This document shows positions 24,156-64,000 of a stretch of 64,000 nt of DNA, one piece after another (positions within the stretch are counted from its first letter, which is position 1; the number at the start of each line of letters is the position of its first letter). The DNA comes from Infirmifilum sp. GTDB lineage: Archaea; Thermoproteota; Thermoprotei; Thermofilales; Thermofilaceae. The position numbers and the translations under genes are program-made. The notes below the pieces were generated by a model. It searched no databases and had not been told where the DNA came from. It saw only the letters and a program-made list of their open reading frames with translations. The stretch is taken from NCBI GenBank assembly GCA_041287245.1, contig JBEULP010000071.1, positions 1-64,000 of the forward strand, read 5' to 3'.

Positions 24156-24929
24156 ATGAGTCTTATTGAAAAAATAAAAACCGGCATTCCGGGTTTTGAT
24201 GAGCTCCTCTTCGGAGGAATACCTAAGAGAAACATCGTCTTATTATCTGGGGGTCCGGGGACTGGGAAGACCATATTTTCGCAACAATATCTATACTACG
24301 GACTCTCCGTGGGCGAAACGGGAGTTCTTGTAGCCCTCGAAGAGCATCCTGTACAGATACGCCGCAATATGGCGTCTTTTGGCTGGGATGTACGAAGATT
24401 CGAAGAAGATGGAAAGTTTGCAATCGTTGACGCTTTCACGGGGGGTGTGGGCGAAGCTGCTAAGAGGGAAAGATATGTTGTAAAAAGCGTCGACGATGTT
24501 GGTGAATTGATAGATGTTGTGCGGCAGGCTATCAAAGACGTTAAGGCGGAGAGGGTGGTTATTGATTCTGTGTCAACCCTTTATTTGACTAAGCCGGCTA
24601 TGGCGCGAGGGGTTCTCATGCAACTAAAAAGAGTTTTATCGGGGCTTGGCGCCACATCCCTCTTCGTTTCACAAGTTAGTGTGACGGAAAGGGGATTTGG
24701 AGGCCCTGGTGTAGAACACGCTGTAGATGGAATTGTAAGGCTCGACCTTGATGAGGTTGACGGAGAACTTGTGAGGTCGCTTTTAATATGGAAGATGAGG
24801 GGGACTAAGCATGACATGAGAAGGAGGCCTTTCGAGATTACCGATAAGGGAATAGTTGTTTATAGCAACAAAGTTGTTAAATTGAAAGGAGTTGTATATA
24901 GAGTTGAAGAGGGGGGTTCGTATGAGTAG
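24156..24929 (+). CDS. Single-domain KaiC-like ATPase
   Basis: [30 protein letters not shown]. Start ATG 24156 (or 24147). Confidence 0.92.
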
Positions 24930-58478: not shown

Positions 58479-59178
58479 CTTTGTAGTGTTCTAAGATTCT
58501 CCGGAGGGAGGAAGCGTCTGAGAGCATAATTTTTTCCTCGTCTTCCAGTAGTAGGACAGAATATTGTTTCAAACTTTCCTTAGGGGAAAGCCTACGAAGA
58601 TCCTTTAGGGTTAAGAAGGAGCCCGCCACCTTCGCGACGGGCAAGTTGTCGTCTAGACTAGCTTCTCCCCTTTTAAGGAAGGCGTGATAGGCAAGATCTG
58701 CGGCGGTGATAACGTTCTCAACGTGCCCCCTGTGGCACACCGGTAGGGCTATTGCTCTAGTTTCGAGGAAAACCCTATAGGCCCTCCGGATAGTGGAGTT
58801 GCACTTGAGGCAGGGAAGCCTGTAGAGCCTGAGCTTGTCGACAAGCGTGTGAAGACTTAGACGCCCCTCGCTTAACAAGTAGAGTACTAGAGAGCGTGGA
58901 GTGTAGGCGGTGTTGTTTTTCCTCGAGATAAGGTAGTAGCCTTCTGCGACGCGGTTTAGGGCGACTGAGAAGCCTGGGGTGGAGTTGACAAAGGAGGTCT
59001 TGGCTCGAGGCTTGCCACGTAAGGCGTAGTATGGTAGGGAGTCAAGGGGTATGTACGAGTCGCCGATCCTGACGACAAGGCTCTGGAAAGCCTTTAGACG
59101 TAGCAGCTCGAAAGCCCGCTCGATCGTGTCAGCCTCCAAGATGATCTCGCCATAACTTGTCTTCAAGGCTTGACCCAC
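58459..59178 (-). CDS. Hypothetical protein with possible Zn site
   Basis: 239 aa, overlapping both neighbours; CLKC...CHRGH. Confidence 0.65.
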   Translation of the reverse strand: MGQALKTSYGEIILEADTIERAFELLRLKAFQSLVVRIGDSYIPLDSLPYYALRGKPRAKTSFVNSTPGFSVALNRVAEGYYLISRKNNTAYTPRSLVLYLLSEGRLSLHTLVDKLRLYRLPCLKCNSTIRRAYRVFLETRAIALPVCHRGHVENVITAADLAYHAFLKRGEASLDDNLPVAKVAGSFLTLKDLRRLSPKESLKQYSVLLLEDEEKIMLSDASSLRRILEHYKGVSRVG

Positions 59179-60980
59179 CTCTCGACGTGGAAGGTTCCCT
59201 GGGGCAGGTGCCGTAAGACTTCTTCGAGCTTAACCTTCACGTTGCACTCCCTCTTCAGAGATTCTACTATTTTCCGGGCTGTCAACTCTCGGGAGAGAGG
59301 CCCAGGGGTAAGCTTCACGTAGCATCCTTTCTCAGGGGTTCTTAGCGCCGGTATAGCCTCTAAGCCGGTCTCGCCTACACCGATCAGTAGCTCTAGAGAA
59401 ACTCCCCGTATCCAGTTTCTCTTACCGTATATCATGAACGCGCCCTTACCTAGGTACTCTCCGCTCGGAGCAGCCTTCGAGACCTGGCTTGAGTGAACCC
59501 AGTATACATCTATGGCTAGCAGCCCAGCCTTCCATGCGCTGCTGTAGCAAGCGGCGAACTGGGCGGCTTCAAGGATATCCTTCTCAGGCACCTCTCGACC
59601 CCCAGTTTTTATGATCACTGCGGGGGCACCGTGTATATCTGCGTGTAGGAACAAGTCTTGTTCACCCATGTACCTTCTTACGAGAAGCTCGTTTTGCCCC
59701 GCAGATTTCCCGGCGACTACGAGAAAACCGTTGGATGTGACGAAGTGCCTGAAGTCCTTGTACCATGGCCCTCCGGCTCGCCTGATAGGCTTCACAACTA
59801 CAAGCTCAGGCTCTTGTCCCCGCGACCCCAGTTCACTCACTTTGCCCCTAAGGGATTTAGCCTTCCCATATAACTCCCCAGCATTTGCGTAAGCGGATTT
59901 TCGAGCGTCAACCTCAACCTCAACACCCTGGAGTTCGACTACTATTAGCCACCTCTCGTGCTTGAAGCCCTTAACCTCTGGGAACCTCCCGGAAATCTCG
60001 CGCTCTATGCCACCCCAGGGTGTCCCAGCGCCTCTGAGCTCACGGTATGCGTTTATTATCTCCTCAATCCTTGGGGCGTGCTCCCAAAGGAGCCTTGCAG
60101 AGGTCTCAAACTTTGAAAGCGCTTCCGAAGCCTTCTCAGCTGGACTCGGCTGTGCTGGTTTTTCTAAGGCATCTGATAGAATTAGCTTTGTCATGAATTC
60201 TGGGAAGACAGCTGTGAAGTCCACCTCCTCGGCTGGGACGCGCAGGTGCAGAGGCTTAAAGGGGTAAACAACCTTCACCCCCTCTAAGGCGACCGTGTAC
60301 CCCTTGCTCCTTTCAAGGAGAGAGTCAAGGTAAATAGACCTTGAAAGGTCAATTATCCTCAGCATACCCTCAAAATCGATAGCTCCTGAATAATCTAGGC
60401 CTAGCCTAAAGGCGGCCTCTAGGATAAGCTCGGGAGGCATGGAGGTGGCTTGGGCAAGGGCTGAGACAATGCTTTTTCGGCGAAGTTTTTGTGCTTTCTC
60501 GGCGACCTCTACGGGGGGAGTTGAAAAGTCCCCTAGCCTGGGAGGAGGCTTGTACTGTTCTCCTCTCCTAACAACACGGTCACGCATAGACTTTTGGTAC
60601 AAGGCGTTCAGAATCTTTCCGGAAGAGTCTAAGAGGATTATGTTCCCCTCCCGGACCCATTCGAGAACTACAGCACGGTTTCCAATATCAAGAGCTAAGA
60701 CTCTGTCGTCATTTACAATGCTCACAGCATGTATCCGCTTCCCCTCGACTTCGCGTAGAAGCGCACTGCGGGTTGAACCGGCCACCGCTATATTCTCGTG
60801 GGCGAGGCTGACCCCTCTCTTCGGACTGAACAGCATTGTTCCACTGGAAAGCTGGAAAAGGAACACTCCCTGTTTTTCCAGAACCTTGGCTACACGGGAC
60901 CCTTCCAGCTGGGCAAGCAAACCCCAAATCTTGTACAGGTCGAGCGTGCTCGCGCTAGACCGCAACTCGCCAACAGCCAC
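59163..60980 (-). CDS. rqcH: Ribosome quality-control factor RqcH/Rqc2 (NFACT)
   Basis: DDRVL, GNIILLD, AGKSAGQNE, HADIHGAP, SKAAPSGEYLGKGAFMIYG. Confidence 0.9.
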   Translation of the reverse strand: MAVGELRSSASTLDLYKIWGLLAQLEGSRVAKVLEKQGVFLFQLSSGTMLFSPKRGVSLAHENIAVAGSTRSALLREVEGKRIHAVSIVNDDRVLALDIGNRAVVLEWVREGNIILLDSSGKILNALYQKSMRDRVVRRGEQYKPPPRLGDFSTPPVEVAEKAQKLRRKSIVSALAQATSMPPELILEAAFRLGLDYSGAIDFEGMLRIIDLSRSIYLDSLLERSKGYTVALEGVKVVYPFKPLHLRVPAEEVDFTAVFPEFMTKLILSDALEKPAQPSPAEKASEALSKFETSARLLWEHAPRIEEIINAYRELRGAGTPWGGIEREISGRFPEVKGFKHERWLIVVELQGVEVEVDARKSAYANAGELYGKAKSLRGKVSELGSRGQEPELVVVKPIRRAGGPWYKDFRHFVTSNGFLVVAGKSAGQNELLVRRYMGEQDLFLHADIHGAPAVIIKTGGREVPEKDILEAAQFAACYSSAWKAGLLAIDVYWVHSSQVSKAAPSGEYLGKGAFMIYGKRNWIRGVSLELLIGVGETGLEAIPALRTPEKGCYVKLTPGPLSRELTARKIVESLKRECNVKVKLEEVLRHLPQGTFHVERWVKP

Positions 60981-61017: not shown

Positions 61018-61545
61018 CTACACCTCAAATTCAAGGTCGAGTGGGTGGTAGAATTTCAAGCTCGCCCTGTTCCCCTCACGTTTTACATAAGCCCTGTGCG
61101 TAAAATATGCGGCAAAAACCTGTTCGCCGAAGCTCCTAGACCCCTCAGAGTAGTTCAAAAAGATCGAGCCCAAGCCCATGTGCGCCCTGTCCAACGCCAG
61201 GGCCAAGAGAGACGCCACAAGCCCCCACCTAGCCCTGTAGTCCAGCTCGAAGCCGTGGAAAACCCTTGGAATACTGTCCACAACTACAAGCCTTTGAGGG
61301 GCATGGGCGAAAACCGATAAGAGCGCCAGAGGATCGCCCCCGGTGTAGAACTTGACCCCACCCCACCCCTGAGCTCGGAAAAGCGTGTGGGAGTAGTCAA
61401 GATATAGTGTCTCGACGCCGAGGCTTGAGACAAGCTTGTATGCAAAGTCACGCCTGCCAGACCCCTGGGGGCCAGAAACCTCTAGGACAAAACCACTCCC
61501 CAGGACGTCGCGGATTCTACGGAGGCTCGACACCGTTTTCACCAA
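61018..61545 (-). CDS. Degenerate RecA/RadA-superfamily ATPase-like protein
   Basis: LEVSGPQGSGRR (Walker A, K replaced by R), LYLD, VVVDSI (Walker B). Confidence 0.7.
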   Translation of the reverse strand: MVKTVSSLRRIRDVLGSGFVLEVSGPQGSGRRDFAYKLVSSLGVETLYLDYSHTLFRAQGWGGVKFYTGGDPLALLSVFAHAPQRLVVVDSIPRVFHGFELDYRARWGLVASLLALALDRAHMGLGSIFLNYSEGSRSFGEQVFAAYFTHRAYVKREGNRASLKFYHPLDLEFEV

Positions 61546-62266
61546 TCCTGAAAACGCCTGAATAATGCCTCCAAGGGCTTGAGAGGACTACAGCTTCTCT
61601 AAGCTCGCCCCTCCGCCGAAGCATCACGCTTAGACAACCATAGGTGTCCAGCGCGGCGCCGCCAGCCGGGGCGAGACCATTGGTAGACACAACCTGCCTT
61701 GTAGCCGCCACCACGGCGCCAGCATTAGCCACGCGCCAAAGCGCCCGTAGAATTCTAGAATAGGCTTCGCTTCTCTCGCGCGGAACCAGGAGCTCGGAGC
61801 GCACAAGGCTTGTGAGCTCGTCTAGGACTAGGAGCCCATAGTCACCGGTTACGACTTCTCGGAAAGCCTTGTCTAGTAAGACGAGGAGGTGTTGTAGGCT
61901 ATGGGCCCTTGCATACGTGATGTTTGACAGGGCGCGGGCTGGGTCGAGGCCTCTAGCGGATGCTATCTTCACGACGCGCTCGGGGAAAAAGTCACCCGTG
62001 GTGTCTATGTATATTGCACGCGAGGCCAAGCCGCCCTGATCGGCTGGTAGCTGTACGTTAACCGATAGCTGGATGCAAAGCTGTGTTTTTCCGCTTCCGG
62101 CTTCGCCTGCTATATCATAAACACATCCCGGTTTTAGCCCTCCTGAGAAGAGAGAATCCAGAGTCGGGACATTCACACGTAATGTCGCCTTTGACACTAT
62201 ATGCTCTTGCGCCACATCAGGAGAGGGGGGGAGCTGGAGAACACCTAGAACATCTTCAACATTCAT
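61517..62266 (-). CDS. RadA paralogue lacking the N-terminal domain
   Basis: LDSLFSGG, GEAGSGKTQ, VNVQLPADQGGL, AIYIDT, LLVLD. Confidence 0.88.
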   Translation of the reverse strand: MNVEDVLGVLQLPPSPDVAQEHIVSKATLRVNVPTLDSLFSGGLKPGCVYDIAGEAGSGKTQLCIQLSVNVQLPADQGGLASRAIYIDTTGDFFPERVVKIASARGLDPARALSNITYARAHSLQHLLVLLDKAFREVVTGDYGLLVLDELTSLVRSELLVPRERSEAYSRILRALWRVANAGAVVAATRQVVSTNGLAPAGGAALDTYGCLSVMLRRRGELREAVVLSSPWRHYSGVFRIGENGVEPP

Positions 62267-62275
62267 AATGAACAG

Positions 62276-62298
62276 AAAAATGAAAAAAGGTAAAAAAA
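62276..62298 (-). terminator. Oligo(T) archaeal terminator after the S-layer-like gene
   Basis: Minus strand reads TTTTTTTACCTTTTTTCATTTTT shortly after the stop codon. Confidence 0.6.
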
Positions 62299-62319
62299 GG
62301 TATTTTTTTATTTTAGTTT

Positions 62320-64000
62320 TTACTGCTTTACTACCGTGCCTCCCTCAGCGGGAGCGATAACTTTTGCTAGTCTGCGGCGCCTGTAGAGGCTGTACTCGTG
62401 GGCAATTATGAAGATCACTAGGACGAGTAGTATGAGGAGCAGTATGAGTCCGAGGAACTCGCTGCTGCTCATCTCCCAGCCTGCTATGGTGAGGAATATG
62501 TCGAGCTTGAGCTCAGTAACGGTCTCCTTACCGCCGCTCACCGTTGCGGTCGCTGAGTCAGTCCTACCGCCCTTGCTCGCGGATACGGAGTACGAGCCCT
62601 GCGGTAGCTCAAGACTCACGACCCCGCTTGCGTCTGTGGTAAAGGTTCCGACGTTCTGGATACTTACGGTTGCGCCTTCGACGCCCTGGCCTCTAGCGCC
62701 GAGGACCTTCACTGTGAGCTTGCCTATCGTTGGAACTGTTACGCCGACGGCCGGCGCCCTGTCAACTGACGTTGTGTAGCCAACGTTGAGGCCCTTCCAC
62801 GTGTTAACGGTTATACCGACCTTGCCGGGCGGTACTTCCTTGACGGTTATACTGCCTGAGCTGTCGAGAGCGTCTGTTAAGCTCCTGCCGTCAGGTGTTG
62901 TTATCGTGACAGAGGCTCCTGCCATCGGTGTGCCGAATGGCGTTGTGAATGTGAGCTGCATGTCGTAGATGTCGAGCTTAACCTGGAAGATCTGGAGGCT
63001 TGTCTCAAACCTGCCCTTCTCGATCTTAATGCTCTGCTGTGCTATAGTGCCCACGCCCGCGAGGTCCACCTTGACCTGGTAGGCTCCGTGCGGCGCCTGT
63101 CCGTGGTCTGCGGGTGTCTCTGGGCTGTACTGGGCGCTTGGGGCAAAGTTTGCCGGCCAGCTTACAACCGTGTCTTTAGCAAGCCTGAGGATCACGCTGC
63201 CGTCAGAGGCTGGAGCTTGCTTTGTCACTGTGCCGTCAGGCCATGTCACAGTTACAGTGATCTTGTTGAGTATGCTCTGGCTCAGGGATCCGCCCTGAGC
63301 ATTGGTCAGGACGAGCTTGGCTACGTAGACGAACGTCTCCAGCGTGGTGCCGCTTCCAGGCGTGTATGTTCTCGGGGTGTCGTAGTCGGTTACAGTGTCG
63401 AAGATAGCTATCTCCTTGGGTATCTTGCCCGCAGCCCTAAGCAGGTAGCTGTCGCGCCAGTAGACAATAAGCTGGTAGGTCTGTGTGCCAGGCGGGACGT
63501 AGATTATTGTATTGCCGTTAGCGTTGGTGAAGTTGAGCGCGCTCGGGTAGGCCTTTGCAACCGGGGTCCTGAGGTAGGCTGCGACCATGGCGTTCTGCAA
63601 CGGCTTGCCCGACCAGTCGAACACTGTCACTAGTAACCCGCTCCAGCTGAGCGGGACGCACTTGCCGCCCGGCATGTTGTTGCTCAAGTTTAACAATACG
63701 GTCTTTGCCAGCGTGTCGGGGTCCATCACGTCTTGCGTCTTAAGCCCGTATGGGCTGAGGATGGGGTCGAAGTTCAGCTTCGTGGAGACCGTGTAGTAGA
63801 GCTGAGGCGTGGTTTTGCTGAGGAAGGCGACCTTGCCTGTGAACACGGGGAGACTGCCGACTGGCGTGTTAACTGTTGAGCCCTTGTCTGGGTAGAAGCT
63901 GACGGTCCCGTCTGCTCCAGTCGAGCCGGAGGCGAGGACGGCATAGGCGCCCGTGGCGCCGGTGACGGTGGCTGTTACAGGCTGGTTTGCGATAGGCACT
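62320..64000 (-). CDS. Large surface/S-layer-like protein with carboxypeptidase-regulatory repeats (5' end outside window)
   Basis: T/S/G/V-rich beta-sandwich repeats (VPPGK, LPQGSY), C-terminal TM and RRRR; GC-rich third codon positions by eye. Confidence 0.8.
   Translation of the reverse strand, partial: VPIANQPVTATVTGATGAYAVLASGSTGADGTVSFYPDKGSTVNTPVGSLPVFTGKVAFLSKTTPQLYYTVSTKLNFDPILSPYGLKTQDVMDPDTLAKTVLLNLSNNMPGGKCVPLSWSGLLVTVFDWSGKPLQNAMVAAYLRTPVAKAYPSALNFTNANGNTIIYVPPGTQTYQLIVYWRDSYLLRAAGKIPKEIAIFDTVTDYDTPRTYTPGSGTTLETFVYVAKLVLTNAQGGSLSQSILNKITVTVTWPDGTVTKQAPASDGSVILRLAKDTVVSWPANFAPSAQYSPETPADHGQAPHGAYQVKVDLAGVGTIAQQSIKIEKGRFETSLQIFQVKLDIYDMQLTFTTPFGTPMAGASVTITTPDGRSLTDALDSSGSITVKEVPPGKVGITVNTWKGLNVGYTTSVDRAPAVGVTVPTIGKLTVKVLGARGQGVEGATVSIQNVGTFTTDASGVVSLELPQGSYSVSASKGGRTDSATATVSGGKETVTELKLDIFLTIAGWEMSSSEFLGLILLLILLVLVIFIIAHEYSLYRRRRLAKVIAPAEGGTVVKQ

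What the first reader, a model, noticed from the sequence alone, without database searches (positions are those of the whole stretch)
61018..62266. Tandem degenerate RadA paralogues resembling a eukaryotic Rad51-paralogue heterodimer
Seen: the 249-aa gene keeps the RadA/Rad51-type insert (VQLPADQGGL) and Walker A. It lacks the N-terminal HhH domain and an obvious FxxA polymerisation motif, and has DTT where RadA has catalytic DTE. It overlaps by 29 bp a 175-aa RecA-fold gene with Walker A GSGRR. Known: Rad55-Rad57, RAD51C-XRCC3 and Csm2-Psy3 are heterodimers of degenerate Rad51 paralogues that act as mediators. Inference: a co-translated archaeal mediator heterodimer distinct from RadB and aRadC.
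Basis: partly seen in the sequence, partly recalled or inferred. Interest (0 to 1): 0.72.

Follow-up and report, generated by a model that had tools for sequence, protein, structure and literature searches.

The report
Archaeal RadA-derived filament-cap protein pair
Two overlapping, stripped-down copies of the recombination gene radA are kept side by side across a family of hot-spring archaea and are predicted to form a dimer that likely caps RadA filaments, as the human RAD51 paralogues do; in many relatives half of the gene stays nearly identical in DNA to radA or to its neighbour, likely through repeated gene conversion.

Summary
P1 (249 aa) is a Rad51-family core without N-terminal domain, FxxA motif or catalytic Glu. 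P2 has a RecA fold and probably starts at GTG 61533 (171 aa, 17-bp overlap, not 29). The genome also has a canonical radA and a second full-length paralogue, R2. The pair lies on one contig in 17 of 23 family genomes, just upstream of rqcH where that flank is assembled, and is under purifying selection. It is neither RadB nor aRadC: outgroups carry an intact radA-type gene at P1's position. A fold of P1+P2 scored 0.76 against a best control of 0.02 (mark reached by 116 of 157 solved and 2 of 215 mismatched pairs; possibly from memory of solved paralogue complexes). P1's C-half packs on P2's P-loop, leaving P1's N-half free. In 14 of 23 genomes, much or all of that N-half is near-identical in DNA between paralogue and radA, or between the two paralogues; this genome is not among them. 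Best reading: a convergent RadA→P1→P2 filament-end mediator. Binding to RadA is untested.

The parts
61517..62266 (-). P1 (gene 1): 249-aa RadA-derived paralogue, ATPase core only
61018..61533 (-). P2 (gene 2): 171-aa minimal RecA-fold paralogue (alternative TTG start at 61545 gives 175 aa)
61539..61543 (-). GGTGA Shine-Dalgarno-like motif for P2, inside the end of P1; translational coupling inferred
   Evidence: same motif and a nearby GTG in G005, G006, G007
62084..62107 (-). P1 Walker A (residues 54-61), intact
61997..62005 (-). P1 DTT (residues 88-90): catalytic Glu replaced
61889..62179 (-). P1 residues 30-126: the stretch that is gene-converted in relatives (RadA 129-225 equivalent); only 54% identical in DNA to radA in this genome
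61568..61780 (-). P1 residues 163-233: predicted face that packs on P2
61450..61473 (-). P2 degenerate P-loop (residues 21-28, Lys to Arg), predicted to be buried against P1
59163..60980 (-). context: rqcH (ribosome rescue), conserved downstream neighbour
   Evidence: (NF041120, 426 bits)
62320..63999 (-). context: Ig-like repeat protein with a C-terminal hydrophobic stretch, conserved upstream neighbour; may start beyond the window edge

Best explanation
P1 and P2 are two RadA-derived paralogues encoded by overlapping genes; they are predicted to bind head to tail and likely act as a cap at one end of the RadA-ssDNA filament, in the order RadA, P1, P2, serving as this lineage's recombination mediator. 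Shown: descent from the RadA side of the family, position at the old radA locus, joint conservation, purifying selection, loss of N-terminal domain, FxxA and catalytic residues in this copy. Predicted: P1's C-terminal half (helix 163-174, L2 region 199-213, cap loop 228-233) packs on P2's P-loop and Walker B side. Inferred: P1's free N-terminal half (Walker A and the strand that receives a neighbour's FxxA, a role recalled from RAD51 structures) accepts the last RadA protomer. Neither protein can donate an FxxA, so the chain would stop at P2, and with the catalytic residues gone the cap would be stable rather than cycling. In relatives that N-half is kept like RadA's by recurrent gene conversion that stops before Walker B, as expected if it does RadA's job while the C-half does something else. 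In this genome's sub-clade conversion has stopped and the half has drifted.
For: Co-conservation: P2 lies directly behind a P1 ORF and ahead of rqcH in 12 of 12 loci found with P2. Both genes are on one contig in 17 of 23 family genomes; in 3 the assembly breaks inside the repeated tract, and 3 lack the pair and also rqcH. Gene ends overlap in all 9 junctions printed. Selection among G000, G005, G006, G007: P1 pN 0.12-0.31 vs pS 0.49-0.86; P2 pN 0.16-0.37 vs pS 0.41-0.81. Complex: ipSAE 0.76 (0.79, 0.76, 0.62), best of 3 controls 0.02; mark reached by 116 of 157 solved and 2 of 215 mismatched pairs, counts only roughly valid with my own alignments; runs share at least 44% of contacts; partner pLDDT at least 86. 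Polarity: 25 of 27 P1 interface residues lie beyond the converted tract; I noted the 'acceptor face' idea, before the fold. Conversion: tracts of 41-97 near-identical codons in 14 of 23 genomes, starting at RadA residue 121-159 and ending at 193-225, short of Walker B (248) in all 18 such pairs. Half-gene trees disagree accordingly. Analogy: one-directional RAD51-XRCC3-RAD51C binding (PMC10366140, passages); N-domain-less, catalytically dead terminal paralogues enforce capping (PMC7618403, passages). No RadB over the TIGR02237 cut-off in 0 of 61 sampled phylum genomes, this one included.
Against: No contact with RadA was folded or measured. The P1-P2 pass may come from memory of solved RAD51-paralogue complexes; controls were unrelated proteins, not RadA, R2 or homodimers, and the tool notes that close cousins of a true partner also pass (10 of 12 colicin pairs). 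This genome and G005, G006, G007 show no conversion (tract 51-59% identical to own radA), and their P1 N-half groups with R2, not RadA (97/88; 6 vs 3 of 13 diagnostic sites; long-branch pull possible). Only 15 of 26 residues of the predicted accepting face of P2 fall in the tract-equivalent region, so the tract is not the whole face. Gene overlaps are common in this compact genome. Five complete or near-complete genomes of families f10 and f14 were checked for Rad51-family genes and three of them at rqcH: no such pair was found, so related organisms seem to manage without it.
Confidence: 0.55

Rival explanations
1. Three-paralogue cap: the P1-P2 dimer docks on the full-length paralogue R2 (order RadA, R2, P1, P2), closer to the human XRCC3-RAD51C-RAD51D-XRCC2 chain.
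For: R2 keeps the HhH domain, Walker A and catalytic Glu, forms its own clade and lies within about 7 kb of radA in 7 genomes where both were seen on one contig. This sub-clade's P1 N-half groups with R2.
Against: Where conversion is seen, the P1 tract matches radA or P2, never R2. R2 persists in family f10 where the pair was not found. The grouping joins the two longest stems and P1 is sister to all R2, not to its own genome's.
Confidence: 0.15
2. Same dimer, opposite effect: an anti-recombinase that terminates or sequesters RadA filaments.
For: A capping geometry can block growth as well as seed it. Sulfolobus Ral1 with Ral2 negatively regulates RadA strand exchange, and Pyrococcus RadB interfered with filament formation in vitro (PMC7407445, passages). 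P1's L2 is shortened and its GGNxxAH motif changed.
Against: Structurally similar eukaryotic caps promote and stabilise filaments (PMC7618403), and Haloferax RadB is pro-recombinogenic in vivo (PMC5480776, passages).
Confidence: 0.13
3. No complex: two independently acting or slowly decaying RadA remnants that stay adjacent only because they arose by tandem duplication at the radA-rqcH locus; conversion is a neutral by-product of repeats.
For: Tandem origin alone explains adjacency: radA lies upstream of an rqcH-like ORF in 5 of 10 canonical radA loci from other classes. Both proteins evolve several times faster than RadA. Single chimeric gene-1N/gene-2C forms occur in some assemblies.
Against: pN is far below pS, frames are intact, the tract stops before Walker B in all 18 pairs, the stop-start overlap is kept, and the interface scores far above controls. 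The chimeras may be assembly collapses over the repeat.
Confidence: 0.12
4. P1 is an ordinary RadB and P2 an unrelated small ATPase.
For: Like RadB, P1 lacks the N-terminal domain; it hits TIGR02237 at E 1.5e-21.
Against: 77 bits against a cut-off of 172, and 138 bits to the RadA model. RadB-like proteins are split from RadA+P1+P2 at 99/96; the AU test rejects P1+RadB only narrowly, p 0.039. Fold Z 32.3 (rmsd 2.1, 220 aligned) to Rad51 vs 23.3 (rmsd 2.3, 206 aligned) to RadB. Intact radA-type genes hold P1's position in outgroups.
Confidence: 0.03

Closest known systems
XRCC3-RAD51C-RAD51D-XRCC2 cap and yeast Rad55-Rad57 (PMC7618403, PMC10366140; passages read)
   Same: Degenerate recombinase paralogues in a polar head-to-tail chain; terminal subunit without N-terminal domain; catalytically dead subunits; P2's best fold matches are paralogue chains of these complexes.
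   Different: Archaeal, two subunits, both without N-terminal domain in this genus; probably arose separately at the radA locus, with near-intact ancestors still visible in outgroups; partly homogenised with the recombinase gene; function untested. Orthology was not tested by tree.
RadB (PMC5480776; passages read)
   Same: N-domain-less RadA paralogue proposed to act as mediator and, by AlphaFold3 in PMC7618403, as a cap.
   Different: Single protein of a separate clade; the RadB-like rows lack the VQLP..GG insert that P1 has; scores below family cut-offs.
aRadC / Ral1-3 / SSO2452-type KaiC-like paralogues (PMC7407445; passages read)
   Same: RadA paralogues of crenarchaeal thermophiles without N-terminal domain that modulate RadA.
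   Different: KaiC-like branch; this genome has its own such genes (TIGR03877 448 bits, TIGR03881 363 bits), while P1 scores at most 21.5 bits on those models.
mtrA-1/mtrA-2 and RF1/RF2 domain-restricted gene conversion (PMC4632066, PMC4530459; abstracts read)
   Same: Long-lasting conversion of the functionally shared part of two paralogues while the rest diverges.
   Different: Here the genes are the recombinase and its own paralogues, the tract is half of one domain, and partners can be far apart on the chromosome (about 250-270 kb in G001 and G004).

Membership tests
RadA (PRK04301 / TIGR02236) | Score over family cut-off | tested here: not met
   P1 138/259 and 125/361 bits; the genome's RadA 473 and 445
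RadA (PRK04301 / TIGR02236) | N-terminal HhH domain and FxxA motif | tested here: not met
   Absent in P1 and P2; P1 residues 10-25 unstructured in the model
RadA (PRK04301 / TIGR02236) | Walker A Lys and catalytic Glu | tested here: not met
   P1 keeps Lys but has Thr for Glu; P2 has Arg for Lys
RadB | TIGR02237 / PRK09361 over cut-off | tested here: not met
   77/172 and 34.5/278 bits
RadB | Lacks N-terminal domain | tested here: met
RadB | Clade with RadB | tested here: not met
   Split at 99/96; AU p 0.039; outgroup was 7 RadB-like proteins of the same phylum (1 of the 4 RadB-like proteins scanned passes the cut-off), no euryarchaeal RadB
aRadC / KaiC-like | KaiC-type family score and clade | tested here: not met
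   PF06745 24.9 bits; TIGR03881 21.5/248; KaiC-like rows split off at 100/99
Rad55-Rad57 / RAD51-paralogue cap | Both subunits are degenerate RecA/Rad51 folds | tested here: met
Rad55-Rad57 / RAD51-paralogue cap | Polar heterodimer, one subunit packing on the other's P-loop | tested here: inconclusive
   Predicted, 0.76 vs best control 0.02 (116 of 157 solved, 2 of 215 mismatched reach the mark); may be likeness to solved complexes
Rad55-Rad57 / RAD51-paralogue cap | First subunit binds the recombinase | not tested
   The single complex job went to P1+P2; indirect support only from conversion in relatives
Rad55-Rad57 / RAD51-paralogue cap | Orthology with eukaryotic paralogues | not tested
   No eukaryotic sequences in my trees; synteny points to a separate origin
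Rad55-Rad57 / RAD51-paralogue cap | Promotes or stabilises recombinase filaments | not testable with these tools
   Needs biochemistry

The most novel reading that the evidence does not exclude
Thermofilales archaea independently built a eukaryote-style, multi-subunit Rad51-paralogue cap (RadA, P1, P2, possibly with R2 as a further subunit) from tandem radA copies. Living genomes preserve the series from intact recombinase to 171-aa dead end-cap, and recombination itself keeps the RadA-docking half of the paralogues in register with RadA by copying it again and again: a natural replay of how Rad55-Rad57 and XRCC3-RAD51C-RAD51D-XRCC2 could have arisen.
Probability: 0.4. Interest if true: 0.82.

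Novelty: new variant of a known kind. Interest (0 to 1): 0.64.

Why it matters
The archaeal RadA paralogues described in the passages I read are RadB and the KaiC-like Ral/aRadC proteins; RadA-derived paralogue heterodimers of the Rad55-Rad57 kind appear there only for eukaryotes. A small thermostable two-subunit cap would be a minimal model for the cancer-relevant RAD51 paralogues. The graded series of orthologues would make the origin of recombination mediators from a recombinase directly testable. The fixed conversion boundary marks which half of RadA is interchangeable. It also warns that trees and short-read assemblies of radA in this lineage can be chimeric or broken.

Tried and rejected
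P2 alone finds nothing in Pfam, NCBIfam or PDB sequences. Assembly artefact as the cause of the shared tracts: rejected because G001 (1 contig) and G004 (2 contigs) show 280-283-bp tracts with 9 and 6 mismatches; the 100% values from fragmented assemblies could still be polished upward. RadB and aRadC identity: rejected as above. DTT and GSGRR as family hallmarks: rejected. Correlation between loss of P1's FxxA-like linker and decay of P2's N-half: seen, but it is probably one event in one clade, so not used as evidence. Promoter/terminator scan: 4 and 8 sites against 2.3 and 4.7 expected, bacterial model, uninformative. No RNA holder listed. Rows dropped before the 14-of-23 count: ORFs cut by contig ends or Ns (gene 1 of G010, G016, G035, G036; gene 2 of G015; pieces in G012, G014, G017) and genomes with only one of the two genes fetched. 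Misses within the count: G000, G005, G006, G007, G041, G044, G047 have no long tract; G050 has 31 codons; G008 has 99 bp running to a contig end. RadB-like genes vs radA in 4 genomes of other classes: no shared tract. Literature: searches listed no paper whose title or abstract start describes this pair or radA-paralogue conversion; the library is open-access only, I read passages of seven papers and abstracts of two, and opened no supplements.

Full report
Observation. The two minus-strand ORFs are present as described. P1 (61517-62266) is a Rad51-family ATPase core: Pfam Rad51 130.5 bits, best NCBIfam hit the RadA model at 138 bits, below its cut-off of 259; best PDB sequences are RadA and RAD51 at E about 1e-33 to 1e-29. 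It lacks the HhH domain and FxxA motif and has Thr for the catalytic Glu. P2 has no family hit, but its model (pLDDT 89) is a RecA/Rad51 fold, and orthologues in sister genera still carry recognisable RadA motifs. Its start is probably the GTG at 61533, giving 171 aa and a 17-bp overlap. Sources name close P2 homologues Infirmifilum and Thermofilaceae; the order name Thermofilales is recalled.

Genome context. G000 has three Rad51-family matches: a canonical RadA (C25; 473 bits), a second full-length HhH-bearing paralogue that I call R2 (C86; 282 bits) and P1. P2 is a fourth member that the Pfam model misses. KaiC-type genes are separate.

Conservation of the pair. P2 as query matched 12 of 61 related genomes, all in the family. 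In 12 of 12 loci a P1 ORF lies directly upstream and rqcH downstream; the Ig-like gene is upstream in 9 of 12. With a profile and fetched regions, both genes are on one contig in 17 of 23 family genomes (one gene cut by a contig end in G010, G015, G016). In G012, G014 and G017 the pieces end at contig ends inside the repeated tract. G002, G013 and G020 show neither the pair nor rqcH, so the locus is probably unassembled there. Stop and start overlap in the 9 junctions printed, by 8 bp in G001, G004, G008 and G019. Among G000, G005, G006 and G007 both genes have pN well below pS, though several times higher than RadA's.

Origin. In other families of the order and in family f9 of the class the same site reads Ig-like gene, gene 1, gene 2, rqcH, sometimes with small genes between. 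There gene 1 is often an intact RadA-type gene (G027, G029, G032, G041, G044; the two scanned, G029 and G041, score 452 and 494 bits) and gene 2 a degenerate paralogue, several of them still with an N-terminal domain. In other classes an rqcH-like ORF follows canonical radA in 5 of 10 loci fetched (weak partial hits). A 57-row tree puts P1 and P2 on the RadA side, apart from RadB-like proteins (99/96) and KaiC-like ones; holding P1 with RadB is rejected narrowly (p 0.039). P1's and P2's places within the RadA side are unresolved, and both are long branches. No RadB over cut-off was found in 61 phylum genomes sampled, G000 included. I infer that the pair arose by duplication at the old radA locus, with P1 the copy left behind once radA proper moved, so the likeness to eukaryotic paralogues is probably convergent. 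No eukaryotic sequences were in the trees.

Gene conversion. In G001, G003, G004, G009 and G019 a 280-293-bp stretch of P1 is 97-100% identical to the same genome's radA. Fourfold-degenerate sites agree at 35/39, 45/45, 36/41, 48/48 and 46/51, against 8/37 to 24/36 between nearest RadA orthologues (40/42 for one very close pair), while the C-halves are 40-44% identical. In G011, G024, G027, G029, G030 and G032 the tract is shared between gene 1 and gene 2; in G018, G021 and G022 among all three genes. In all, 14 of 23 genomes with both genes aligned have a tract of 41-97 codons. In the 18 such pairs it starts at RadA residue 121-159 and ends at 193-225, before Walker B at 248. The C-half tree gathers the family's gene-1 copies, the gene-2 copies, R2 and RadA-type genes into separate groups (some weakly supported); the N-half tree puts paralogues beside their own genome's partner (FastTree, long branches). 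G001 and G004 are one- and two-contig genomes with mismatches in the tract, so collapse in assembly does not explain it. This genome and its three closest relatives have no tract (51-59%), and only they have Thr or Arg for the catalytic Glu. Published parallels are mtrA-1/mtrA-2 and RF1/RF2 (abstracts).

Complex. P1+P2, each with its own alignment, scored ipSAE 0.76 (runs 0.79, 0.76, 0.62) against a best control of 0.02. The mark was reached by 116 of 157 solved and 2 of 215 mismatched pairs, counts that hold only roughly with my alignments. Runs share at least 44% of contacts and the partner's pLDDT is at least 86. RAD51-paralogue complexes are solved, so the pass may reflect likeness, and no RecA-fold control was run. 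The geometry is filament-like and polar: P1 gives residues 163-174, 199-213 and 228-233, and P2 its P-loop (22-32), 48-55, 87-99 and 128-135. Of 27 P1 interface residues, 25 lie beyond the tract; of 26 P2 residues, 15 lie within its equivalent. P1 Asp207, next to the position of RadA's interface His (role recalled), touches P2's P-loop and Arg90. With P2's Lys-to-Arg change this suggests a contact that needs no ATP turnover (inference).

Mechanism. In RAD51C-XRCC3 the subunit whose Walker motifs hold the nucleotide is the one clasped by its neighbour's polymerisation motif, and binding runs one way, RAD51 to XRCC3 to RAD51C (PMC10366140, passages). RadB, Rad55 and XRCC2 lack the N-terminal domain and so end the filament, and RAD51D and XRCC2 lack the catalytic Glu (PMC7618403, passages). 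By the same logic P1 would accept the last RadA protomer on its N-half, donate its C-half to P2, and P2 would end the chain. Shown: descent, linkage, selection, conversion in relatives. Predicted: the P1-P2 interface and its polarity. Inferred: RadA binding, capping and a pro-recombination effect.

Against. The RadA contact is untested. In this sub-clade P1's N-half leans toward R2 (97/88; 6 vs 3 of 13 diagnostic sites), which may be long-branch pull or a switch of partner. The pair was not found in the f10 and f14 genomes checked. Capping could inhibit rather than promote, as reported for Ral1 with Ral2 (PMC7407445, passages). Single chimeric genes occur in some assemblies.

Novelty. Eight searches of the open-access library aimed at this question listed no paper whose title or abstract start describes this pair; subscription papers and supplements were not seen. 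Two recent RadA phylogenies (PMC12722695; bioRxiv 10.1101/2025.02.19.639135; passages) set aside highly divergent or motif-less sequences, and the terms Thermoprote (both) and Thermofil (the second) do not occur in their main text. Verdict: a new variant of a known kind, a RadA-derived paralogue pair that likely works like Rad55-Rad57 without being shown a member of that family. Interest 0.64.

Noticed in passing
L002:1495-2451 (G000:C86), outside the window: R2, a second full-length RadA paralogue with HhH domain and intact Walker A and catalytic Glu; forms its own clade across the order and family f10, and lies within about 7 kb of radA in several genomes. Could be a second recombinase or an XRCC3-like subunit.
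   Followed up: partly
L029 and L030 (G005): G005 has two R2 copies that share 48 of 50 codons at the C-terminal end: conversion of a different part of the gene.
   Followed up: partly
L088:1890-2828 (G025), L060:1438-2196 (G031); proteins P0015, P0020, P0021, P0023: Chimeric genes with the N-part of radA or gene 1 and the C-half of gene 2, or a single gene at the locus: crossover between the identical tracts or assembly collapse.
   Followed up: no
window 24174-24872 +: KaiC-type RecA-family gene over the TIGR03877 cut-off (448 bits), probably the genome's aRadC-type paralogue (label recalled).
   Followed up: partly
L153-L162; P0031-P0150: RadB-like proteins in Bathyarchaeia-type genomes (one passes TIGR02237 at 173 bits), although the two papers read say RadB is confined to Euryarchaeota.
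   Followed up: partly
L163, L168-L171 and window 59163-60980: radA-family genes are linked to rqcH (ribosome rescue) in several classes of the phylum; no functional reason found.
   Followed up: partly
L080-L082 (G050, G044, G041): Family f9 genomes carry two intact RadA types (a classical one elsewhere and the gene-1 type here) plus gene 2, with a small hydrophobic ORF between gene 1 and gene 2.
   Followed up: partly
window 62267-62319: A/T-rich spacer with oligo-T runs on the minus strand between the Ig-like gene and P1, similar in relatives: possible terminator and weak promoter.
   Followed up: no
window 63376-63499 and 63759-63845: Contigs of public runs split into two variants at these places in the Ig-like gene: strain variation in a likely surface protein.
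   Followed up: no
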